64,000 nucleotides of DNA from a virus. Taxonomy: Duplodnaviria; Caudoviricetes. The stretch spans positions 20,615-84,614 of IMG/VR virus record IMGVR_UViG_2534682025_000001; one strand, 5' to 3'. Each line of letters opens with the position of its first letter. Position 1 is the first letter of the stretch. The notes under the pieces were generated by a model, which ran no database searches, was not told where the DNA came from, and was given only the letters and a program-made list of their open reading frames with translations. Positions 6,643-53,604 of this stretch are shown one piece after another. The position numbers were made by a program, and so were the translations under genes.

Positions 6643-6841
6643 CTGAATCACCCAAGGTCACATTGATTTCGCTAAGCAGGTATTGATTGACTTGATCTAC
6701 AGTGGAGACATTCACAAATACCAACTCAACATCTTTGATTGCCAGGCCAGTCTCAGCCTCAAACAATCGCTTACGATCAGCTATGTCTTGGTATAAATCC
6801 CGCTTAAAGGTATCGAGTCGTTCTTGATCACTTGTACCCAC
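6623..6841 (-). CDS. Hypothetical phage protein
   Basis: 72-aa ORF in operon context. Confidence 0.65.
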   Translation of the reverse strand: MGTSDQERLDTFKRDLYQDIADRKRLFEAETGLAIKDVELVFVNVSTVDQVNQYLLSEINVTLGDSDDMCIV

Positions 6842-6845
6842 GGCG

Positions 6846-7019
6846 CTATCTCCGACTTAAATTGATTTGAATGTTCTTCATGCGAGTACGGATGTTTGCC
6901 ATTACCTCATCAATAGCCATCATCTGTTTGCTATTCATGAATGCTCGACTTAGGTTCTGGTACTTCACCAACTCATCGTGCAATTCATTTAGATTCTTTT
7001 GCGCCTCTTTGACATCCAT
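6846..7019 (-). CDS. Hypothetical protein (KYQNLSRA family), homolog of 52030-52203
   Basis: ELxKYQNLSRA...AID conserved in both prophages; GGTGG SD. Confidence 0.75.
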   Translation of the reverse strand: MDVKEAQKNLNELHDELVKYQNLSRAFMNSKQMMAIDEVMANIRTRMKNIQINLSRR

Positions 7020-7029
7020 ACGCACCACC

Positions 7030-7071
7030 AATAAGAAAAGAAAAACCCCTCAACATCTAGAATGCGAGGGG
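7030..7071 (-). terminator. Intrinsic terminator (CCCCTC..GAGGGG + U tract), shared with 52215-52256
   Basis: Hairpin followed by TTTTTCTTTTC on minus strand. Confidence 0.7.
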
Positions 7072-7241
7072 CTTTATTTGCCGTAATACGTCCGGCGAAT
7101 TTTAAGAATAAAAAAAGCCTGTTTAACTCTCTCTCCAATTAAACAGGCTTGACTTGCGCTACAACTTATTTCTTATTTGCAGGGCTACCATATTGTTTAA
7201 GTATTTCAATCTAATGACATGGCTATTTGTTTGAGTGATTG

Positions 7242-7352
7242 TTATTCAACTTCTTTCAAACAATCCCGACACACTTTGATTTCTTCATCAACCGTGTAAT
7301 CGATTTCAGTCACACCGTGAAGGCCGAATAAACACATTAAGAATCGGAGCAT
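7242..7352 (-). CDS. 36-aa zinc-binding prophage microprotein (DUF1660-like), not in ORF track
   Basis: MLRFLMCLFGLH...CRDC; GGAG SD; positional counterpart at 52305-52412. Confidence 0.65.
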   Translation of the reverse strand: MLRFLMCLFGLHGVTEIDYTVDEEIKVCRDCLKEVE

Positions 7353-7717
7353 TACTTTTCTCCAGACAAAAAAATACCTCCTTTACAGGGAAAGGAGGCA
7401 GAAACTTAATAGAAACTACAGCCATAGAATCTGGCCCGCATTATATACATAATAATATTATATGCAAGGCTGTACCCTTAAATTGAACCTTGCAATAAAA
7501 AGCCTGCTTAGCTGGAGGGCTAAACAGGCCGTGGAGTATTACATTATACTTGTTGTTGTAGCGTTCTAGGAATGAACACAAGATACCAGTTGCTCACCAC
7601 AAATAAGTATAAGAAATATATGCAGAATGTTTTAACGTGTAATAATTAAGTTATATTTATCAATAAATTGATCATCATTTAGTCAAAAATATCACTTAAT
7701 AATCAATCTTGTTTATC

Positions 7718-7794
7718 TGGCACGCCATGTAGGACTCGAACCCACAACCATTGGTATAGAAAACCTATGCTCTTTCCAGTTGAGCTAATGGCGC
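7718..7794 (-). tRNA. tRNA-Arg (anticodon TCT)
   Basis: Cloverleaf GCGCCAT/ATGGCGT, D arm GCTC-AACTGGAAA-GAGC (A20), anticodon loop TTTCTAT, TTCGAGT T loop, encoded CCA; A28-A42 mismatch. Confidence 0.88.
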
Positions 7795-7800
7795 ATAAAA

Positions 7801-8035
7801 AAGGATATGACGATCTGCCACACCCTTGCCTTAGATTACGATACTGACCAGCTCGGCAACTGATCTACCGCTACTCACAATCCCACACACCTAACATGCA
7901 CGGTCCGCTTTACTTGCTTTCAATCCTCTTTAGGTCGGGACGCTACTCCCTAGTCTAAATTCCCGAAGGAAGTTTACTCGATGGCATGTTCCACTGCTCG
8001 GCACTCCAGAAGGCTTGGGTCGCCTTTTCACAGGC
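7801..8035 (-). ncRNA. Candidate ~235-nt structured late RNA upstream of the tRNA (copy 1)
   Basis: Near-identical copy at 52648-52881; C(UUCG)G tetraloop, G-C to G-U substitutions, long-range AACAUGC/GCAUGUU helix; no long ORF shared by both copies. Confidence 0.72.
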
Positions 8036-8038
8036 ATT

Positions 8039-8064
8039 AAAAAAGCCCACCATTTGGCGAGCTT
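8039..8064 (-). terminator. tR'-like terminator of the late leader
   Basis: GCTCGCCA-AA-TGGTGGGC-TTTTTT on minus; same hairpin at 52885-52908. Confidence 0.75.
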
Positions 8065-8100
8065 TCAAATCAATCTAGTGCTTTAACGTACACTTCGATC

Positions 8101-8140
8101 ACTATAACATAAATATACACATATATGGCGCACCAAGCAA
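8101..8140 (-). promoter_or_regulatory. Q-dependent late promoter (pR'-like) with sigma pause element
   Basis: TTGCTT-17-TATATT, then a second -10-like TATAGT at about +1, as in lambda pR'. Confidence 0.65.
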
Positions 8141-8224
8141 ATATTATTTTGAAAGCTTGTTCTTTAATTTAAAATCATATAAAACAATGTATTAACTACT
8201 TTAGAATAAGCTTATGAATGAAAG

Positions 8225-10453
8225 ATGATTAATTGTCTACATATTAAAAAAATCGCGACTTATAATTCTATTGGTGTAGAAATAAATGACCTAAATAAAG
8301 TCAACTTTATCTATGGTGGTAACGGTTGTGGGAAAACAACTATTTCAAATTTTTTATTTCATCATACCCATCCTGATGAATCTGCTAGCAATTATTCTTC
8401 ATGTAACATTGCATTTAAAAGCCTAGAAAAGATCAAAATTTTAACTTATAACAAAAAGTTCAGGGATCTAAATTTCTATAAAGATTCTGAAATACCGGGT
8501 GTTTTCACGTTAGGTGAGGCTTCAATTGAGGAAATACAGGCAATAAATAGCAAAACAGAAGAGTTAAATCTAGCAAATAAAGAATTAAACAAGACTCAAA
8601 CTCAAATTACTAACTTTACTGAATTATCAAATAAACAAGAAAAAGAATCGATAGAAAAATGCTGGGACGTATTCAAACAATATGAAGATGATTTCAGACC
8701 AGCTCTTCTAGGTTCTGGATTTTTGGGCTCTAAGGCTAACTTCAGAAAAAAAATTTTAAATACATTACCTTTGGGCGGGAGAATCATCAAACCACATTCT
8801 TCTCTTGTTGATCGCACCAAAACACTTTTTTCAACAAAATTAGAAACACTCGATGAAATTCACCTTAATGAATCAAATCCCCTAGAACTTTATGAATCAT
8901 CAGATATTTGGAAAACAATTATCATTGGTAAAAAAGACTTAGATATAGCTAAATTAATTAATAATTTAAATATTACAGATTGGGTAAACCAAGGACGTTC
9001 ATACATAAATGATTCAACTTGCCCTTTTTGCCAAAAAGAAACTATTGATGATGTTTTTAAAAGCAGACTTGAGGAGTATTTTGATAATGAATTCGAAAAC
9101 AAGGTAAAAAATCTAAAAGCTTTGCAAGAAAAATATGAAATTGCTTGTACTAATTTGATTAAAGAATTAGAAAACGTCTTAGCCAAAGAAATAAGTAGAA
9201 ACAGTAAGCTCAATATAAAAGAGTTTGAAATCGAATTAGAAAGTCTTAAAAACCTACTAAGATTAAATATTCAATTATCACGGGAAAAGCTAACCAGTAT
9301 AAGTAGCATAATAGAATTAAGCTCATCTAATGATATTTTTAATGAAATTACTTCACTTATTAACAGTGCAAATATCGAGATTAAAAATCACAACGATTTA
9401 GTTAATTCACATGTTCAAGAAACCACTAAGTTGACTTCAGAAATTTGGGATTTTTTAACATTCGAAGCTAATCACCGTATTTCATCACATGAAACTCAAA
9501 TAGAAAATCATTGTAAGGCCCTCAACGGAATGAAGGCATCTGAAGAGAAAGGAAAAGAAAAAATTCAGCGCTTAAGCAATGAGCTTTCCCAATTAAATTC
9601 AACTTCAACAAGTGTACAGCCTGCAGTAGATGAGATTAACCTCTTATTAAAAGGATTTGGTTTTACTAATTTCAAAATTGATAAAGCTGAAAAGCCTAAT
9701 CATTACTGGATCAAACGTGATAATGGTGACAATGCCTTGCACTCACTAAGTGAGGGTGAATCTACATTTATTACTTTTTTGTATTATCTACAGGTAGTTA
9801 AAGGCTTATCAACTAAAGATGAGGCAATCACAAGCAAAATCTTAGTTATCGATGATCCAATTTCAAGCTTAGATAGCAATGTATTATTTATAGTAAGCAC
9901 ATTAATTAAAAATCTTATAAAAGGTACAATATCTAGAGATAGCACACTGGGTATTAAACAAATTATCATCCTTACTCATAACGTATATTTTCATAAGGAG
10001 ATCTCATTCCAACTCCAAAAAGATGATTCAAATCATGTTAATTACTGGATATTAAGAAAAAAAGAAAACACGACATTCATTACAAATCATGGTAAAAACA
10101 ATCCTATTTCCTCAACATATCAAATGCTTTGGAATGATGTAAAAGAAGCAGACAAAAGTAGCTCAACATCAATTCAAAATATCATTAGAAGAATTCTAGA
10201 AAATTATTTCAAAATTCTAGGAAATTACAGCGACACACAAATTATTGATGAATTTAATACATATGAAGAAAAGAAAATTTGCCAATCATTACTGCATTGG
10301 ATAAATGATGGATCTCATTGCATTCCTGATGATTTATTTATTCAACCCATAGATTCAGAAAAAGATATTTATTTAGATGTTTTCAGAAAAATATTTGAGA
10401 AATCTGGACATGAGGCTCACTACAATATGATGATGGGTATAACTAATCATTGA
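8225..10453 (+). CDS. rloC: RloC-like anticodon nuclease (AAA_13/SMC-like ATPase, zinc hook, HEPN)
   Basis: Walker A GGNGCGKT, CPFC zinc hook in coiled coil, LSEGE signature, IDDPISSLD Walker B, LTHN, C-terminal RRILE...NDGSH; AT-rich and opposite to phage genes. Confidence 0.85.
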   Translation: MINCLHIKKIATYNSIGVEINDLNKVNFIYGGNGCGKTTISNFLFHHTHPDESASNYSSCNIAFKSLEKIKILTYNKKFRDLNFYKDSEIPGVFTLGEASIEEIQAINSKTEELNLANKELNKTQTQITNFTELSNKQEKESIEKCWDVFKQYEDDFRPALLGSGFLGSKANFRKKILNTLPLGGRIIKPHSSLVDRTKTLFSTKLETLDEIHLNESNPLELYESSDIWKTIIIGKKDLDIAKLINNLNITDWVNQGRSYINDSTCPFCQKETIDDVFKSRLEEYFDNEFENKVKNLKALQEKYEIACTNLIKELENVLAKEISRNSKLNIKEFEIELESLKNLLRLNIQLSREKLTSISSIIELSSSNDIFNEITSLINSANIEIKNHNDLVNSHVQETTKLTSEIWDFLTFEANHRISSHETQIENHCKALNGMKASEEKGKEKIQRLSNELSQLNSTSTSVQPAVDEINLLLKGFGFTNFKIDKAEKPNHYWIKRDNGDNALHSLSEGESTFITFLYYLQVVKGLSTKDEAITSKILVIDDPISSLDSNVLFIVSTLIKNLIKGTISRDSTLGIKQIIILTHNVYFHKEISFQLQKDDSNHVNYWILRKKENTTFITNHGKNNPISSTYQMLWNDVKEADKSSSTSIQNIIRRILENYFKILGNYSDTQIIDEFNTYEEKKICQSLLHWINDGSHCIPDDLFIQPIDSEKDIYLDVFRKIFEKSGHEAHYNMMMGITNH

Positions 10454-10473: not shown

Positions 10474-10508
10474 AAAATAAAACTCTATTTATTTAATAGA
10501 GTTTTATT
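10474..10508. terminator. Bidirectional hairpin between rloC and Q
   Basis: AATAAAACTCTATT...AATAGAGTTTTATT inverted repeat; second palindrome over the rloC stop (10440-10463). Confidence 0.65.
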
Positions 10509-10899
10509 GGTTACATATAAACTCTAATCTACAATCCAACCAGGTTTCCCCAGCAAGTAAATATTTATCGATTATGCGCCTGTCAACTTTACTTAATTTT
10601 TCCAAAGCTCGGATTGACAACCCCTTCAAATAATGAAACTCAATCCACTGGTACAGATCTGGCCGTGAAAAGCGCAACTGCGTCACCAGGTGATCAATAG
10701 CAACCAAAGCATCATCATCCAGCATCACCTGAATACCTGACGACTTCTGCCCCTCTTTCAAACGCATCAAACCATATGTAGGTGAGGTATAAGTCAATTC
10801 ACTTGGATTATATGAAGCATGACGCGCCCACTTACCCCACTGCGCCAATTCATTCTGCATCATTCGAACCGTTGGTTTTACTTCTACAATTGCGCTCAT
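10504..10899 (-). CDS. Late antiterminator Q family protein
   Basis: ELAQWGKWA, DDDALVAID, C-terminal sigma4-like HTH; last gene of the replication operon. Confidence 0.85.
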   Translation of the reverse strand: MSAIVEVKPTVRMMQNELAQWGKWARHASYNPSELTYTSPTYGLMRLKEGQKSSGIQVMLDDDALVAIDHLVTQLRFSRPDLYQWIEFHYLKGLSIRALEKLSKVDRRIIDKYLLAGETWLDCRLEFICNQ

Positions 10900-19430: not shown

Positions 19431-19606
19431 TGGTTCTTACAATTTCGCAAACCTGTAAATTATTAAATATCGGACGCACTACGGTTTACAGAATGTTTGA
19501 GCGAGAGGAATTAGAAAAAATTGAAATAGGAAAATCAGTCCGGGTTAAGCTCCCGGACCATCTGGCCAAAGCATACGAAGATCAAATTAAAGCCCTTATG
19601 CATTAA
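19430..19606 (+). CDS. xis: Excisionase (HTH_17), 58 aa, not in ORF track
   Basis: LTISQTCKLLNIGRTTVYRM...IEIGKSVRV; convergent with the integrase. Confidence 0.8.
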   Translation: MVLTISQTCKLLNIGRTTVYRMFEREELEKIEIGKSVRVKLPDHLAKAYEDQIKALMH

Positions 19607-20834
19607 GGGCTTTTAGTTTTAATGAGTCCAGATAATCAGACCACGCCTGCATCATCACCTGTCTTTCTTCTAAATACTTAGTACGGTTATATGCCCGACC
19701 ATGCATATCCCTCACCTGGTGGCCCAGCTGCTGCTCAATACGTTCAATCGGAAATTTTAAAACTTCATCTAATAAGGTACGTGCTGTTGCACGGAAGCCG
19801 TGGCCTGTGGTTTCGCCATTTTCCCAGCCTAAATTTTTAAGTGCCTTATTTATTGAGCTATCAGACAACAATCTGGTTTTACCCCAGTAATTGGCAAAGC
19901 AGTATTCAGATCCACCGGTAATCATATGCAACTCTTTAAACATTGCAGTGACCTGATCAGAAAGCGGTATCACCAATTGAGTACCTAAAGCATTTGCGGT
20001 TTTGGACGGCGTGTAGGCCCAAGTCTTTTCATCAAAATTTATATCGGCCCACATTGCATGACGCAACTCACCAGGACGAACAAACACATGAGGTAAAATT
20101 CTAAGAGCATAAGCCATTACGATTGAGCCGCGATTTGTATAGTTATCAATTGCCACCAGTAATTCACCAAGCAAACTAGGATCGGTGACGGCAGCATGAT
20201 GTGTTTTTTTATGGGGCTTTAATAGCCCTTGAATATCCAGTGCCACATTTCGATCACAAAGACCAAGCACTAAACCGTATTTAAACACTTGCCCTGCTTT
20301 TGATCGCATACGTCTTGCTGTTTCAGACTTACCTTGTTTTTCATAAATCTGGCAAACGTCGAGCAACTGGCGGGCTGATATTTCATGAATTGGCTTTTTA
20401 CCAATAGCATCAAACAAATACTGATAAATAAATTCGTTTCTATGTCTTGTTGATTCAGCAACAACTTCAGTTTGCATAAATTCGCGTGCCACAGCTTCGA
20501 ATGTGTTTCGCATGGCAAAGCGGGCTTGTTCTTCCTGTTCTTTTCGATGGGCAAACGGATCTATATCTTGAGCAAGTAGCTCTTTATATTCTTCACGGAA
20601 CTTTCTGGCATCGGCCAAAGATAAATTTGGATATACACCTATACCAATTGTCGTTCTTTTTTTTGTAATAGGTCGAAAATAATCAAAACGCCAATATGTG
20701 CCGCCTTTTTTATCTAAAAGCAGAAATAAACCACCACCATCAGCCAGTTTTATTATCTTTTCTGGTGACTTTTTTTGCTTAGATATTGCAGATTTAATTT
20801 TTGCGTCTGTGAGACTTACAACTGTTCTAGCCAT
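19596..20834 (-). CDS. int: P4/IntA-type tyrosine integrase
   Basis: LADGGGLFL arm-binding domain, GVYPNLSLADAR, RPGELR, HGFRATA, QLGH, AYNR. Confidence 0.95.
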   Translation of the reverse strand: MARTVVSLTDAKIKSAISKQKKSPEKIIKLADGGGLFLLLDKKGGTYWRFDYFRPITKKRTTIGIGVYPNLSLADARKFREEYKELLAQDIDPFAHRKEQEEQARFAMRNTFEAVAREFMQTEVVAESTRHRNEFIYQYLFDAIGKKPIHEISARQLLDVCQIYEKQGKSETARRMRSKAGQVFKYGLVLGLCDRNVALDIQGLLKPHKKTHHAAVTDPSLLGELLVAIDNYTNRGSIVMAYALRILPHVFVRPGELRHAMWADINFDEKTWAYTPSKTANALGTQLVIPLSDQVTAMFKELHMITGGSEYCFANYWGKTRLLSDSSINKALKNLGWENGETTGHGFRATARTLLDEVLKFPIERIEQQLGHQVRDMHGRAYNRTKYLEERQVMMQAWSDYLDSLKLKALNA

Positions 20835-21194: not shown

Positions 21195-22181
21195 ATGGCC
21201 ACCTTTAGACAAAGGGGTGATGCTTGGCGAGTTGAGATTAGTGTGAATGGTACTCGGGAAAGTGCAACATTCGATACTAAGACTCAGGCTCGCGCATGGG
21301 CATCAAAACGTGAAACTGAATTAAGAGAGTTATCACGCGGAAAGCTTCCTGATTATACATTAAATTGTGCAATTGATAGATACATAGAAGAAGTGTGCCC
21401 AAAGCACAAAGGTTGTGATGCAGAGATTAAAAGATTCCGAGCATTTCAAAGGAACTTCCCAAAGATTGCCAAAAAACATATTGCCAAAATTACCACCGAT
21501 GATTTTGTGGTGTGGCGAGATACCAGACTAAAAACAGTCAAGCCGGCCTCGGTACGACGTGAGGGTAATATCCTGTCTGCCCTATTCACTGTTGCACGCA
21601 CAGAATGGAAGTGGGTCTATGATTCACCCATGAGTGACTTAAAGATGCCACCACCACCAGCACATCGAGATAGACGTATATCGGAGGATGAAATTTACAG
21701 GCTTTGTCTTGCTGCTGAATTTGATGATCAGGCGCCTGAGAATTTCACACAGCAAATTATGATTGCTTTCCTGTTGGCGATTGAAACTGCAATGCGTGCC
21801 GGTGAGATCCGTGGCCTGACTTGGGATCGAGTTTATTTAAAGAATAGATATGTGACTTTGAATGAAACCAAAAATGGTACGAAGCGACATGTGCCCTTAT
21901 CAAAGCGTGCTGTTGAATTGCTTGAGCTTATGAAAGGTGTCGGCAGTCATCAGGTTTTTACGGTGAAAGATTCGAGCTTTGATACACTTTGGAGGAAGTT
22001 GCGAGATAAGTGTGAAATTGAAGATTTGCATTTTCACGACTCAAGACATGAAGCATGCACACGGCTTGCTCAGAAATTGGAAGTATTAGATTTGGCGCGG
22101 ATGATCGGGCATAAGGATTTAAGAAGCCTGATGATTTATTACAATGCAACTGCATCAGAGATTGCAAATAGGTTGGATTAA
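21195..22181 (+). CDS. int: Tyrosine integrase (short, Rci/XerC-like clade)
   Basis: TAMRAGE, TKNG, FHDSRHEA, IGH, YY catalytic set. Confidence 0.93.
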   Translation: MATFRQRGDAWRVEISVNGTRESATFDTKTQARAWASKRETELRELSRGKLPDYTLNCAIDRYIEEVCPKHKGCDAEIKRFRAFQRNFPKIAKKHIAKITTDDFVVWRDTRLKTVKPASVRREGNILSALFTVARTEWKWVYDSPMSDLKMPPPPAHRDRRISEDEIYRLCLAAEFDDQAPENFTQQIMIAFLLAIETAMRAGEIRGLTWDRVYLKNRYVTLNETKNGTKRHVPLSKRAVELLELMKGVGSHQVFTVKDSSFDTLWRKLRDKCEIEDLHFHDSRHEACTRLAQKLEVLDLARMIGHKDLRSLMIYYNATASEIANRLD

Positions 22182-22297: not shown

Positions 22298-23047
22298 TCA
22301 TTTGAGGGCATTATTATATTTAATTAGGATATTAGCCACAGCCTTAGCAGCCAGCCAGTAACGCGCATTGAATCGTGCAAGTTCATCTTCATTGGAAATA
22401 AAGCCAAGCTCTACAATCAAACCGCCAGCATTCACGTATGCCAGACGGCCACGCGCTGATTTACTTTGATCAATCCAACCGTTGTCACCACGTAATCGAC
22501 TACCCAATGCATCGGCTACAGCTTTAGATAAGTCCTGTGCAAGTTTCTTGTCTTTGGGTAATGCAATCGTTTCAATGCCATTTGCCTGTTTTGATGCTGC
22601 AGCATTCATGTGGAATTCGACTGCAACACTTGAGCCTTGAATCAATTTTACCGCAGCAGACAAAGGGTCGTTTTTGGTGCCAGTGCCATCGGTCTTGACT
22701 TGCAGCCCCGCTTCACGCAAATAATGAGTTACTGCATTGCGGAAATTAACCACCAGATCGGCTTCTTTCACTTTGCCATTGACTGCACCGGGGTCTGTAT
22801 TACTGTGCCCTGCTGTAACTGTGACAAAGCCTAAAGTCTGATTATGTAATTGTGGTTGTGCGATTTTACGACCTACCCAGCTTAGGGCTGGCAATACAGT
22901 ACCAATGATAAAAGGCGCATATTGTTCAGGGATAAAATTAAAGTCTAATGCCCACTGAATAACTAAAACTGCAAGCATTAAAAAAGCCCCCAGTAGTGGG
23001 AGCTTTACGGATAAGTACTGAAGTGCACTTTCTTGGATTAATTTCAT
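22298..23047 (-). CDS. N-acetylmuramoyl-L-alanine amidase (Amidase_3) endolysin with two-TM holin-like N-terminus
   Basis: AGH..DPGA...E, EFHMNA, IVELGFISN; first ~66 aa have two hydrophobic helices ending GRKIAQP. Confidence 0.88.
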   Translation of the reverse strand: MKLIQESALQYLSVKLPLLGAFLMLAVLVIQWALDFNFIPEQYAPFIIGTVLPALSWVGRKIAQPQLHNQTLGFVTVTAGHSNTDPGAVNGKVKEADLVVNFRNAVTHYLREAGLQVKTDGTGTKNDPLSAAVKLIQGSSVAVEFHMNAAASKQANGIETIALPKDKKLAQDLSKAVADALGSRLRGDNGWIDQSKSARGRLAYVNAGGLIVELGFISNEDELARFNARYWLAAKAVANILIKYNNALK

Positions 23048-41908: not shown

Positions 41909-41940
41909 GACTTTCTCCTAATCATATTCAAAAAAAAGAA

Positions 41941-41996
41941 ACTGGCAGGCACGCTGAATATGGAAACGTGCTTTTCGAACCGTCGTTCTAGCCAGT
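41941..41996 (-). ncRNA. C4/IsrK-like antisense RNA upstream of rha
   Basis: Outer stem ACUGGC/GCCAGU, two inner hairpins; loop CAUAUUCA complementary to UGAAUAUG at 41930-41923 and 41907-41900. Confidence 0.65.
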
Positions 41997-42059
41997 GGTT
42001 TGCCTGAAAACAGGCATAAAAAAACCGCCCAATAAGGACGGTTTGATTAAGTGGTGAAG

Positions 42060-52566: not shown

Positions 52567-52641
52567 TGGCACGCCATGCAGGACTCGAACCCACACCACC
52601 GATTTTGGAGACCGATGCTCTACCAGTTGAGCTAATGGCGC
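52567..52641 (-). tRNA. tRNA-Trp (anticodon CCA)
   Basis: Cloverleaf with acceptor GCGCCAT/ATGGCGT, loop CTCCAAA, G73, encoded CCA; U27-G43 and G30-U40 wobbles. Confidence 0.9.
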
Positions 52642-52647
52642 TTAAAT

Positions 52648-52881
52648 AAGGATGTGGCGATCTGCCACACCCTGCCTTAGATTACGATATTGACCAGCTT
52701 GGCAACTGATCTACCGCTACTCACAATCACACACACCTAACATGCACGGTCTGCTTTACTTGCTTTCAATCCTCTTTAGGTCGGGGCGCTACTCCCTGGT
52801 CTAGATTCCCGAAGGAAGTTTACTCGATGGCATGTTCCACTGGTCAGCACTCCAGTAGGCTTGGGTTGCCTTTTTACAGGC
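52648..52881 (-). ncRNA. Candidate structured late RNA (copy 2)
   Basis: Homologous to 7801-8035 with structure-compatible substitutions. Confidence 0.72.
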
Positions 52882-52945
52882 AACAAAAAAGCCCACCATT
52901 TGGCGAGCCTCTTAACACTTGGTCACTTTTGTATAGAACGACCAG

Positions 52946-52984
52946 TCTATAAAAATACTATCTTATATGGGGCTTATTTGTCAA
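52946..52984 (-). promoter_or_regulatory. Late promoter pR'-like
   Basis: TTGACA-18-TAGTAT, then TATAGA; spacer shares CCATATA with the prophage 1 promoter. Confidence 0.6.
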
Positions 52985-53518
52985 TTAAGCTTTTCTCAAA
53001 TTTTTCCGATAGATATCTGCATAAAAATCTATTTCATCACGCATGTCTGAAAGCATAATTTCTACCATGTTTTCCAGATAAGCATAGTGCTCCCGATACG
53101 TCCGCATCTTCATCTCTGTGATGCCAAAAAAGCGTAGTTTGTCTTCGGCTTTAAAATTACCCATATCTCGAAGACTTAAGAATAGCGCCATCTTTGCCAC
53201 CTTGAATGCAAAGGACTTAAGATCAAATCGAATACGCTGCACATCCTTTGCTAAAGCCTCATAGAGACTAGCAGCTAAATAATGATGCAAAATATTGTAG
53301 GCCATTGTGTTATCTCGATAGTCACCCCATACCAAGATTTCACAATATGCCTTTGTTGCCTGATCATCGATTGAAGCAATAGCACCACAGCGATCTTCCC
53401 ATGTAATTGGCTCCAAACTACCACCCCCTTGACTTGGTTCATAATTTGCTGTTTTGGCTCTTAACTGCTGCCCCAACCATTCAATGTTTGTCATCTTTTC
53501 AGCTACCATCGCATTCAT
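52985..53518 (-). CDS. Putative late antiterminator (Q position)
   Basis: Directly upstream of late promoter/terminator; no clear similarity to prophage 1 Q. Confidence 0.6.
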   Translation of the reverse strand: MNAMVAEKMTNIEWLGQQLRAKTANYEPSQGGGSLEPITWEDRCGAIASIDDQATKAYCEILVWGDYRDNTMAYNILHHYLAASLYEALAKDVQRIRFDLKSFAFKVAKMALFLSLRDMGNFKAEDKLRFFGITEMKMRTYREHYAYLENMVEIMLSDMRDEIDFYADIYRKNLRKA

Positions 53519-53529
53519 CCCATCCACCC

Positions 53530-53604
53530 TCAAACCCTTAACTTTTCAACTTGAATAATCAGCTTCCCGCCTTTTTCTGATGGCAACCGCTTTAAGTCAG
53601 TCAT
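53530..53604 (-). pseudogene. Probable C-terminal remnant of a RusA-like resolvase
   Basis: KRLPSEKGGKLIIQVEKL resembles RusA C-termini; position before Q. Confidence 0.45.

What the first reader, a model, noticed from the sequence alone, without database searches (positions are those of the whole stretch)
7801..8035. Conserved ~235-nt structured RNA between the late terminator and the tRNA in both prophages
Seen: near-identical copies (7801-8035, 52648-52881) in phages with dissimilar Q-position, head and replication genes, and no long ORF shared by both. Minus-strand structure includes a C(UUCG)G-capped stem, a 7-bp long-range AACAUGC/GCAUGUU helix, a terminal GCCUU/AAGGC pairing, GAUUG/UAAUC pairing and a repeated GAGUAGCG (loop-E-like AGUA). 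Many differences fall in loops or convert G-C to G-U (GCCACAUCC vs GUCAUAUCC), which favours the minus strand, although one 5' stem is weakened in copy 1. It is the first thing made after Q antitermination. Knowledge: GOLLD and ROOL RNAs are prophage- and tRNA-associated but much larger. From memory, GAUUGAAAG...GUAAUCU resembles the GOLLD 3' core. Inference: a minimal GOLLD-like or new ncRNA class, co-processed with a variable tRNA. This is the best candidate for an undescribed system here.
Basis: partly seen in the sequence, partly recalled or inferred. Interest (0 to 1): 0.85.

Follow-up and report, generated by a model that had tools for sequence, protein, structure and literature searches.

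The report
Known orphan RNA in prophage leader
Both copies are members of an already catalogued structured RNA of unknown function (Rfam Pseudomonadales-1) that Acinetobacter prophages carry just behind the terminator of their late promoter and often just before a tRNA gene, so it is real and interesting but not a new class and not a small GOLLD.

Summary
Two 93%-identical copies lie on the minus strand at 8038-7801 and 52884-52648, each followed by a tRNA. The interpretation does not hold. Both copies match Rfam RF03046 (Pseudomonadales-1 RNA) end to end at 112.7 and 119.6 bits (cut-off 68). No GOLLD or ROOL match appears even at E<=10.

Relatives were found only in Acinetobacter: 42 of 151 species genomes, 0 of 150 other genomes sampled from the order, and 85 IMG/VR stretches.

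Tested helices:
- The UUCG hairpin, the 5' hairpin and the 3' hairpin also covary.
- The proposed GCCUU/AAGGC and GAUUG/UAAUC pairings are not supported.

The RNA follows a conserved late-promoter, leader and terminator unit downstream of a Q-type gene, and heads the packaging operon. A tRNA follows directly in 58 of 125 distinct instances.

What I add to the Rfam model:
- About 25 nt at the 5' end and about 45 nt at the 3' end.
- The pseudoknot.
- A modular build.

Most likely it is a stable RNA released from the antiterminated late transcript. Its function is still unknown. An earlier report of this scan reached the same identification on other DNA.

The parts
10504..10899 (-). Prophage 1 Q-type antiterminator gene (context)
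   Evidence: phrog_79 'anti-termination protein Q-like' E 1.7e-22; Pfam PF06530 Phage_antitermQ 52.9 bits, cut-off 26
8094..8140 (-). Prophage 1 late-promoter-like unit. It has TTGCTT, a 17-nt spacer and TATATT (8140-8112), then a conserved -10-like TGTTATAGT (8109-8101) and CGAAGTG in the early transcribed region.
   Evidence: Read. The unit is conserved in 14 aligned Q-to-RNA intergenic regions, where relatives have TTGACC/TTGACG as -35. The consensus scan did not call it, because the -35 matches only 3 of 6. Function is inferred.
8039..8062 (-). Copy 1: intrinsic-terminator-like hairpin GCUCGCCAAAUGGUGGGC plus U6 (tR'-like), directly before the RNA
   Evidence: Sequence. A hairpin plus U-run at this place in 63 of 76 type I/III instances; its sequence varies but the hairpin is kept.
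8019..8038 (-). Copy 1: 5' hairpin P0 (outside the Rfam model), weakened in copy 1
   Evidence: Column 8/19 of A2 switches C-G (21) and U-A (28); copy 1 has two mismatches here
7846..8013 (-). Copy 1: Rfam RF03046 core (P1, optional UUCG hairpin P1a, P2, P3/loop-E-like internal loop/P4, P5)
   Evidence: cmscan 112.7 bits, gathering 68, model 1-164 of 164. On 99 distinct CM-aligned sequences, 34 of 45 pairs change on both sides.
7984..7990 (-). Copy 1: pseudoknot 5' strand AACAUGC (junction after P1)
   Evidence: Pairs with the P4 loop; six covarying versions across the family
7893..7899 (-). Copy 1: pseudoknot 3' strand GCAUGUU (terminal loop of P4)
7828..7845 (-). Copy 1: 3' linker AGUAUCGUAAUCUAAGGC (outside the Rfam model). 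It is highly conserved. UAUCG can pair with CGGUA before P5.
   Evidence: Mean pairwise identity 0.88 in 30 CM-found class-A sequences, against 0.57 for the 5' part. CGGUA/UAUCG is paired in 99.5% of cells but almost invariant.
7795..7827 (-). Copy 1: 3' hairpin AAGGGUGUGGC-AGAUC-GUCAUAUCCUU plus U-run (terminator-like, or a 3' protective hairpin)
   Evidence: Called terminator-like by the scan. 94% of cells paired, with GU 41, AU 23 and GC 23 at one pair.
7718..7794 (-). tRNA-Arg (anticodon tct)
   Evidence: ARAGORN; Rfam tRNA 55.7 bits
52985..53533 (-). Prophage 2 Q-position gene, 182 aa, phrog_5656 (function unknown; weak Q-lambda-like fold)
   Evidence: phrog_5656 E 2.9e-69; no Pfam family. 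AlphaFold2 model mean pLDDT 79. Q-lambda is the best-TM Foldseek row (7ubn_Q, prob 0.89, TM 0.47, E 0.49) and the top VIA row (4mo1_A, Z 6.9, rmsd 3.4, 97 aligned). Both are below the level that proves a shared fold.
52955..52984 (-). Prophage 2 sigma-70-like promoter TTGACA, 16/18-nt spacer, GATAGT/TAGTAT, directly after the Q-position gene
   Evidence: 10 of 12 matches in the consensus scan; function is inferred
52885..52908 (-). Copy 2: terminator-like hairpin plus U6 directly before the RNA
   Evidence: Sequence identical to copy 1
52865..52884 (-). Copy 2: 5' hairpin P0, GUUGCC-UGUAAAAA-GGCAAC
52692..52859 (-). Copy 2: Rfam RF03046 core; pseudoknot strands at 52836-52830 and 52745-52739
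   Evidence: cmscan 119.6 bits, model 1-164; pseudoknot
52648..52691 (-). Copy 2: 3' linker and 3' hairpin (GGGUGUGGC-AGAUC-GCCACAUCC)
52567..52641 (-). tRNA-Trp (anticodon cca)
   Evidence: ARAGORN; Rfam tRNA 60.4 bits

Best explanation
Each copy is a full-length member of the known Rfam family RF03046 (Pseudomonadales-1 RNA). In practice this is a non-coding RNA of Acinetobacter prophages. It sits on the late-gene strand after a Q-type (or phrog_5656) gene, a late promoter, a leader of about 50 nt and an intrinsic terminator, and at the head of the HNH/terminase packaging operon. Shown: family membership, strand, covarying helices, a covarying pseudoknot between the junction after P1 and the P4 loop, extra conserved parts outside the Rfam model (a 5' hairpin, a 3' linker and a 3' hairpin with a U-run), and the genomic position. 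Inferred: the RNA is made only when the antiterminator lets RNA polymerase read through the upstream terminator, that is, late in induction. It is then released as a stable species of about 235 nt whose ends are guarded by the 5' and 3' hairpins. Where a tRNA follows 3-8 nt later, RNase P cleavage at the tRNA 5' end would define the 3' end. It then acts in trans through its folded core. The near-invariant GAAA/UGAGUAGC internal loop, P5 and linker are the likely binding surface for a protein or another RNA. What it binds and what that achieves is unknown. The confidence given is for the whole reading including the inferred mechanism; family membership alone I hold at about 0.97.
For: Membership: 112.7 and 119.6 bits against a cut-off of 68, model 1-164 of 164, minus strand.

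Distribution: the search pattern hit 85 IMG/VR stretches and 35 of 35 genome contigs titled Acinetobacter. RF03046 scored over its cut-off in 42 of 151 Acinetobacter species genomes, with up to 4 copies each, and in 0 of 150 other genomes sampled from the order.

Structure: on 99 distinct CM-aligned sequences, 85.5% of cells are paired. 34 of 45 pairs change on both sides. The covariation score is 0.313 against 0.136 shuffled (0 of 500) and at most 0.054 when slid (the alignment is fitted to the model).

Pseudoknot: 60 of 64 distinct sequence combinations give a helix of 6-8 bp between the junction and the independently folded P4 loop. The mean is 7.08 bp, against 4.23 with a shuffled 5' strand (maximum 4.55 in 200 runs) and 4.02 across subtypes. 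Six different sequence versions occur.

Strand: G-C to G-U (14) and U-A to U-G (35) changes in P5, and GU/AU/GC alternation in the 3' hairpin.

Position: the conserved -35, -10, -10-like element, leader and terminator in 14 aligned intergenic regions. The nearest upstream same-strand ORF fell in a phrog_79 Q-like cluster in 28 of 88 loci and in the phrog_5656 cluster in 24 of 88; only cluster representatives were scanned. Among the first two downstream ORFs of 80 loci, the largest cluster (32 occurrences) is HNH endonuclease phrog_131. In the window, terminase genes follow.

tRNA: one follows directly in 58 of 125 distinct instances.
Against: No transcript data. The only runs available were assembled contigs, which cannot show expression, ends or strand. 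The MFE z-score of the minus strand is only -1.33, so the case rests on covariation and not on thermodynamics. 67 of 125 instances have no tRNA called downstream, so processing with a tRNA cannot be the general rule. Class-B members replace P5 and the 3' module with a short terminator hairpin, so the 3' module is not essential to the family. A 19-nt probe of the conserved linker found no complementary site in 5 Acinetobacter genomes beyond the RNA loci themselves, so base-pairing to a host target is not indicated. No trans-acting role has been tested anywhere that I could find.
Confidence: 0.55

Rival explanations
1. It is a cis-acting leader element. The folded RNA stays part of the late transcript and works on it, for example by making RNA polymerase or the transcript resistant to the several terminators that follow (as HK022 put RNA does), by guiding maturation of the adjacent tRNA, or by protecting the 5' end of the long late mRNA.
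For: It always lies at the head of the late operon on the coding strand. In prophage 1, five terminator-like hairpins lie on the minus strand between 7830 and 7115, against 1.2 expected. All of them lie downstream of the RNA core, and the first is the RNA's own 3' hairpin. The RNA occurs with two unrelated Q-position genes.
Against: It lies after the first terminator and so cannot help to pass that one. A Q-type protein is present in at least 28 of 88 loci and would already give processive antitermination. Where a tRNA follows, RNase P would sever the RNA from the downstream message (inference). Two copies sit 600 nt apart in one genome, which is odd for a leader element.
Confidence: 0.2
2. 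It is a riboswitch-like attenuator. The pseudoknotted core is a ligand- or factor-sensing domain and the terminal hairpin plus U-run is its expression platform, gating the tRNA and late genes.
For: Both class A and class B end in a terminator-like hairpin directly after the conserved core. The fold is complex and pseudoknotted, like many aptamers.
Against: I found no conserved alternative pairing between the core and the terminator stem. Downstream features vary between tRNAs, tRNA-like sequences, other RNA modules and ORFs. Rfam files the family as a gene/sRNA and not as cis-regulatory. Q-modified polymerase would ignore such a terminator (established knowledge of lambdoid Q).
Confidence: 0.07
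3. It is a minimal relative of GOLLD or ROOL.
For: It shares the context only: prophage location and tRNA neighbours, which the Weinberg 2017 paper gives for GOLLD and ROOL (passage seen).
Against: No GOLLD or ROOL match at E<=10 over 7600-8250. The motif pairing recalled as GOLLD-like is not supported. The best and only significant family is RF03046.
Confidence: 0.03
4. It is not an RNA at all, but a DNA-level recombination joint between mosaic phages, or a small protein gene.
For: The 3' third is far more conserved in sequence than the rest (0.97 and 0.88 identity against 0.57), as at mosaic joints. A 35/36-aa frame is shared by the two copies.
Against: Compensatory changes occur in 34 of 45 pairs and in the pseudoknot. 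The G-U pattern is strand-specific. Homologues have 1-nt indels inside the shared frame.
Confidence: 0.02

Closest known systems
Rfam RF03046, Pseudomonadales-1 RNA. By my recollection it comes from the Weinberg et al. 2017 set of 224 candidate RNAs.
   Same: It is the same family: full-length matches over the gathering score, and the same helices, internal loop and taxon. The Rfam 15 paper lists it only as a family that gained one covarying pair by R-scape (passage seen).
   Different: The window's copies and most relatives extend beyond the 164-position model. They add a 5' hairpin, a conserved 3' linker and a 3' hairpin with a U-run. A covarying pseudoknot is not shown in the model's structure line. 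I could not check whether the original description already notes the pseudoknot, the prophage context or the tRNA link.
GOLLD and ROOL RNAs
   Same: Found in prophages and next to tRNAs, with unknown function (passage of PMC5737381 seen).
   Different: No sequence or structure match. This RNA is about 170-240 nt; GOLLD and ROOL are several-fold larger (recalled).
Small stable RNAs of the phage T4 tRNA cluster (species 1 and 2, rnaC/rnaD) (recalled, no call)
   Same: Phage-encoded, non-decoding, structured RNAs that lie beside tRNA genes and would mature with them; function unknown.
   Different: No homology was tested or claimed. T4 is lytic and its cluster is not behind a Q-dependent terminator.
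Lambdoid late control region: Q, pR', 6S leader RNA and tR', with tRNA genes behind tR' in Stx phages (established knowledge, recalled)
   Same: The same order of parts: Q-type gene, promoter with a -10-like element just downstream, a short leader, a terminator, then tRNA and late genes.
   Different: The structured RNA here lies after the terminator. It is therefore not the counterpart of the 6S leader, and lambda has no such RNA at that place.
HK022 put RNA (cis-acting antiterminator RNA) (recalled)
   Same: A folded phage RNA in a leader, upstream of terminators.
   Different: put lies before the terminators it overrides and replaces a protein factor. Here a terminator precedes the RNA and a Q-type gene is present. 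No similarity was tested.

Membership tests
Rfam RF03046 Pseudomonadales-1 RNA | Covariance-model score at or above the curated gathering score (68 bits) | tested here: met
   112.7 bits (8013-7846) and 119.6 bits (52859-52692), E 1e-25 and 1e-27; repeated on the provirus record
Rfam RF03046 Pseudomonadales-1 RNA | Full-length match to the model (positions 1-164), not a fragment | tested here: met
   Model 1-164 of 164, not cut off, for both copies
Rfam RF03046 Pseudomonadales-1 RNA | Helices P1, P2, P3/P4 and P5 kept by compensatory change | tested here: met
   85.5% of cells paired, 34 of 45 pairs changed on both sides, and P1 has 7 of 7 pairs covarying (the alignment is fitted to a model built from the window's subtype)
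Rfam RF03046 Pseudomonadales-1 RNA | Conserved internal loop GAAA opposite UGAGUAGC, and the conserved GCC..GAG junction | tested here: met
   Upper-case consensus positions are matched in both copies (alignment); these positions are invariant or nearly so in 88 sequences
Rfam RF03046 Pseudomonadales-1 RNA | Occurrence in Pseudomonadales | tested here: met
   The window is an unnamed IMG/VR provirus record. All 35 genome contigs with the pattern are titled Acinetobacter. 42 of 151 genomes of that genus score over the cut-off. The host of the window itself is inferred.
GOLLD RNA | Match to the Rfam covariance model | tested here: not met
   No GOLLD row among the 9 matches at E<=10 in 7600-8250, nor at gathering level in the whole window
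GOLLD RNA | Prophage and tRNA neighbourhood | tested here: met
   Context only. The property is as stated for GOLLD in PMC5737381.
ROOL RNA | Match to the Rfam covariance model | tested here: not met
   No ROOL row at E<=10
Lambdoid Q-dependent late transcription unit (context, not the RNA itself) | Q-family gene directly upstream on the same strand | tested here: met
   Prophage 1: PF06530 and phrog_79, although a 2.2-kb opposite-strand gene now separates Q from the promoter. Prophage 2: phrog_5656, whose likeness to Q-lambda is weak. That part is inconclusive.
Lambdoid Q-dependent late transcription unit (context, not the RNA itself) | Promoter with a -10-like pause element in the early transcribed region, a short leader and an intrinsic terminator | tested here: inconclusive
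   The sequence pattern is conserved in 14 aligned intergenic regions and the promoter is called in prophage 2. Pausing, Q loading and termination cannot be tested with these tools.

The most novel reading that the evidence does not exclude
The full unit is a compact functional counterpart of the large tRNA-linked phage RNAs (GOLLD, ROOL). The unit comprises the 5' hairpin, the pseudoknotted core with a sarcin-ricin-like loop, the near-invariant P5 and linker, and the 3' hairpin. On this reading it is a late-expressed, self-contained folded RNA, cut out together with phage tRNAs, that binds a host or phage factor of the translation or tRNA-surveillance machinery. An example would be a decoy or shield against tRNA-cutting defences such as the PrrC-like gene that sits beside it in prophage 1. 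This would give the orphan family RF03046 a first function and supply a small, tractable model for that whole group of RNAs.
Probability: 0.12. Interest if true: 0.75.

Novelty: already known. Interest (0 to 1): 0.3.

Why it matters
The family has been in Rfam for years with no function. I found no paper in the searchable library that discusses it beyond a table entry. Three points make a functional test simple to design. First, in practice it is an RNA of Acinetobacter prophages, placed directly behind the Q-controlled late terminator and ahead of tRNAs and the packaging genes. Second, the functional unit is longer than the model. Third, it contains a well-supported pseudoknot. The test would be to induce a lysogen that carries it, map the RNA ends, delete it and complement in cis and in trans. 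The same identification was made earlier on other DNA.

Tried and rejected
GOLLD/ROOL relationship: cmscan at gathering level on the whole window and at E<=10 on 7600-8250 gave no such match. Rejected.

The outer pairs are unpaired in 61 of 79 and 70 of 79 cells, and only the two central C-G pairs hold. Rejected as a conserved helix.

Only two cells change on both sides. Not supported.

Thermodynamic test: minus strand z -1.33, with 21 of 200 shuffles folding as well. Not significant on its own.

Isolated phages: blastn (distant mode) of 7795-8070 against 50,697 INPHARED records gave no match. Records near the window's genome may be left out of that collection, so this is not proof of absence.

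Expression: the look-up of sequencing runs listed 24 runs. Only one holder is on record as RNA, and all are kept as contigs. I laid X7, X1, X3 and X2. Contigs of relatives cover the RNA and tRNA, but contigs cannot show transcription, ends or strand, so no conclusion was drawn.

Host target by base pairing: a 19-nt stretch of the conserved linker, with up to 3 mismatches, in 5 Acinetobacter genomes hit only the RNA loci at 0-1 mismatch. The 3-mismatch hits were at about the rate of the reversed control. No target is indicated.

phrog_5656 as a Q protein: Foldseek E 0.49, and VIA Z 6.9 is below the level the tool gives for helical proteins. Suggestive only.

RNAalifold on the mixed MAFFT alignment found only the 3' helices, because the subtypes are misaligned in the 5' half. 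I therefore built a covariance model. Its alignment still scatters the P4 loop of subtype II, so the pseudoknot was tested per sequence in a script and not by columns.

Literature: 'Pseudomonadales-1' gave 0 papers. 'RF03046' gave 2 listings, the Rfam 15 paper and its preprint, with one table entry. A four-term search on Acinetobacter prophage non-coding RNA listed nothing relevant by title (listing only). The main text of Weinberg 2017 has no mention. Its supplementary files, which hold the motif's description, were closed and may already state the context or the pseudoknot.
Full report
WHAT IS THERE. The two stretches are real. On the minus strand, 8035-7801 and 52881-52648 align with 17 differences in 238 positions, while the sequences outside the unit are unrelated. 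Each is followed 4 nt after the end of the profile match by a tRNA: Arg(tct) at 7794-7718 and Trp(cca) at 52641-52567. The window is part of an 84.6-kb IMG/VR provirus record. It holds two tandem prophages in the same orientation, separated by two integrase genes (19596-20834, 21195-22181) and the endolysin of the second phage.

IDENTITY. A gathering-threshold cmscan of the whole window puts both copies in Rfam RF03046, Pseudomonadales-1 RNA. The scores are 112.7 and 119.6 bits against a cut-off of 68, over model positions 1-164 of 164, on the minus strand. A permissive scan of 7600-8250 (E<=10) gave nothing else of note and no GOLLD or ROOL row. The library of papers holds nothing on this family beyond one table entry in the Rfam 15 paper, which records one extra covarying pair found by R-scape. 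An earlier report of this scan (e1-2491292) made the same identification in the same context on other DNA. My tests agree with it.

DISTRIBUTION. A 23-letter pattern from the conserved 3' part hit 85 IMG/VR stretches and 35 genome contigs, all 35 titled Acinetobacter. With the Rfam model, 42 of 151 Acinetobacter species genomes score over the cut-off, with up to four copies each. One genome has two copies 600 nt apart. In a sample of the order, only the centre genome matched, so 0 of 150 others did. No match was found in 50,697 deposited phage genomes. A profile search of all fetched loci gave 173 hits and 128 distinct sequences. The conservation is therefore not the product of recent exchange between the two prophages in the window.

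STRUCTURE. I built a covariance model from 46 cores of the window's subtype using the Rfam pairing and aligned 101 hits to it.
- On the 99 distinct rows, 85.5% of cells are paired and 34 of 45 pairs show changes on both sides.
- The covariation score is 0.313, against 0.136 for shuffles (0 of 500) and at most 0.054 for slid partners.
- P1 covaries at all 7 pairs. The alignment is fitted to the structure, which favours it.

I folded the P3-P4 segment of each sequence on its own and then asked whether its terminal loop is complementary to the junction.
- 60 of 64 distinct combinations gave 6-8 contiguous pairs, with a mean of 7.08.
- The mean was 4.23 for a shuffled junction (maximum 4.55 in 200 runs) and 4.02 when junctions and loops of different subtypes were crossed.
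- Six sequence versions occur: AACAUGC/GCAUGUU, UACAUGC/GCAUGUA, GAGUUAGC/GCUAACUU, GAGUGAGC/GCUCAUUU, GAGUGGGC/GCCCAUUU and UGAAUAGG/CCUAUUCA.

This pseudoknot does not appear in the model's structure line. I cannot tell whether the original description notes it.

The UUCG-capped hairpin is real and covaries, but it is an insertion relative to the model and is absent in other subtypes.

PARTS OUTSIDE THE RFAM MODEL. On 88 full-length sequences (pairs counted):
- The 5' hairpin switches C-G (21) and U-A (28) at one pair.
- P5 is paired in 99.8% of cells, with only one-sided G-C to G-U (14) and U-A to U-G (35) changes. These fit this strand only.
- The 3' hairpin is paired in 94.2% of cells, with GU 41, AU 23 and GC 23 at one pair.
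- A possible CGGUA/UAUCG extension of P5 is paired in 99.5% of cells but is almost invariant, so it is untested.
- His GAUUG/UAAUC has breaks without compensation.

Among 30 distinct class-A sequences found with the Rfam model and not with my pattern, mean pairwise identity is:
- 0.57 for the 5' part;
- 0.97 for GAGUAGCGGUA plus P5;
- 0.88 for the linker;
- 0.81 for the 3' hairpin.

The family is modular. Of 48 distinct CM-found genome instances, 30 have the window's 3' module. Another 10 or 11 end right after GAGUAGCG in a short G+C hairpin with a U-run, and 7 or 8 differ again. One subtype has a different 5' extension and no terminator directly upstream.

CONTEXT. In prophage 1, reading along the minus strand, the order is:
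- methyltransferase;
- RusA-like resolvase;
- Q-type antiterminator (PF06530, phrog_79; 10504-10899);
- an opposite-strand 742-aa gene;
- the promoter-like unit, terminator and RNA;
- tRNA-Arg;
- small ORFs;
- HNH endonuclease;
- small and large terminase;
- portal.

In prophage 2 the order is:
- DnaB;
- methyltransferase;
- resolvase;
- a 182-aa phrog_5656 protein;
- a sigma-70-like promoter (TTGACA, 16/18-nt spacer, GATAGT/TAGTAT; 10 of 12 matches) right after its stop codon;
- the terminator and RNA;
- tRNA-Trp;
- HNH endonuclease;
- further genes, then large terminase.

Fourteen aligned intergenic regions between a Q-type gene and the RNA share four elements. These are a -35 (TTGACC/G in relatives), a -10, a conserved -10-like TGTTATAGT followed by CGAAGTG, and the hairpin plus U-run. 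That is the layout of a lambdoid Q-dependent late promoter with its terminator (established knowledge). Copy 1 keeps the whole unit although the 742-aa gene has come between Q and the promoter.

Across loci with at least 1.5 kb upstream, the nearest same-strand ORF belongs to a phrog_79 cluster in 28 of 88 and to the phrog_5656 cluster in 24 of 88. None was found in 5, and the rest were small or other ORFs. Only representatives were scanned. The phrog_5656 protein models as a helical protein (pLDDT 79). Its best-TM Foldseek row and top VIA row are both Q of lambda, but the scores are too weak to prove it.

Downstream, among the first two ORFs of 80 loci, the commonest cluster (32 occurrences) is the terminase-associated HNH endonuclease phrog_131. 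The next (15 occurrences) is phrog_3194, the family of the 61-aa ORF at 6846-7031.

A tRNA starts within a few nucleotides of the 3' hairpin in 58 of 125 distinct instances: 46 Arg-tct, 9 Trp-cca and 3 Met-cat. In 67 none was called. Some of these carry tRNA-like sequences without an anticodon arm.

HOW IT MOST LIKELY WORKS. Shown: a conserved, pseudoknotted RNA fold on the late strand, bracketed by a terminator-like hairpin upstream and a hairpin plus U-run downstream, at the head of the packaging operon and often abutting a tRNA.

Inferred: the RNA is transcribed only when the Q-type factor carries polymerase through the upstream terminator. It is then freed from the long transcript, by RNase P where a tRNA follows and otherwise at its own 3' hairpin. 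It persists because both ends are closed by hairpins. The near-invariant internal loop (GAAA opposite UGAGUAGC, which resembles a sarcin-ricin or loop-E motif by my recollection of that motif), P5 and the linker would be the contact surface for a partner.

I hold family membership at about 0.97 and the whole mechanistic reading at about 0.55. The cis-acting leader reading is the main rival (0.2). It is favoured by the string of terminator-like hairpins that follow in prophage 1 (five, against 1.2 expected). It is disfavoured by the terminator that precedes the RNA, by the presence of Q, and by the tandem copies. No expression data could be obtained, because the runs were contigs only. A search for a complementary host site found none.

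VERDICT. It is wrong on novelty and on GOLLD kinship. The thing is already known as an orphan Rfam family.

Noticed in passing
window 8225-10453 (+): A 742-aa gene on the opposite strand is inserted between the Q gene and the late promoter of prophage 1. Pfam AAA_13 covers the full length (526.7 bits). It matches PADLOC candidate defence family PDC-S06 (805 bits) and weakly matches the C-terminal part of PrrC (E 1e-12). So a possible tRNA-cutting defence gene sits next to a phage tRNA-Arg and the structured RNA.
   Followed up: partly
window 7365-7470 (-), also 7501-7530 and 7115-7150 (-): About 250 nt after tRNA-Arg lies a second promoter-like TTGCAT...TATAAT with a leader of about 70 nt and a strong terminator (7400-7375), plus two more terminator-like hairpins. 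On the minus strand of 6800-8400 the scan called five, against 1.2 expected. The same promoter-leader-terminator unit follows class-B copies of the RNA in L149, L158 and L150.
   Followed up: partly
window 52985-53533 (-): The phrog_5656 protein (182 aa, no Pfam family) occupies the Q position in prophage 2 and in 24 of 88 related loci. Its model's best structural matches are Q of lambda, but at weak scores. It may be an unrecognised Q-type antiterminator family.
   Followed up: partly
window 41925-41998 (-): Rfam int-alpA RNA (RF02996) matches at 40 bits (cut-off 35.8) inside prophage 2.
   Followed up: no
L160 (G098:C3:62344-65106), also L149: Two RF03046 copies of different subtypes lie in tandem, 600 nt apart, with the promoter-leader-terminator unit between them.
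   Followed up: partly
L144 and L151, directly after the 3' hairpin: These are tRNA-like sequences with an acceptor stem, D arm and T arm but no anticodon arm, in the place where other loci have tRNA-Arg. ARAGORN does not call them. They resemble the non-decoding tRNA look-alikes noted earlier in this scan.
   Followed up: no
L148, L154, L156, L131, L149 (second copy); a variant in L140, L141, L153: A recurrent conserved module starting GCCCUGAGAAAU follows the RNA in place of a tRNA. In the variant it closes as a long hairpin. It may be another swappable RNA module of these leaders.
   Followed up: no
L093, L027, L004 and about 30 other loci (subtype II): Subtype II copies carry a different conserved 5' extension (GGAUUUGUGACGCUG...GCGCAAACGG, then GGGAUGCAGAAACC...) instead of the terminator plus 5' hairpin, so these RNAs are longer at the 5' end than the Rfam model.
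   Followed up: no
window 19596-20834 (-) and 21195-22181 (+): Two integrase genes lie back to back at the junction of the two prophages, followed by the endolysin of prophage 2 at 22298-23047.
   Followed up: no
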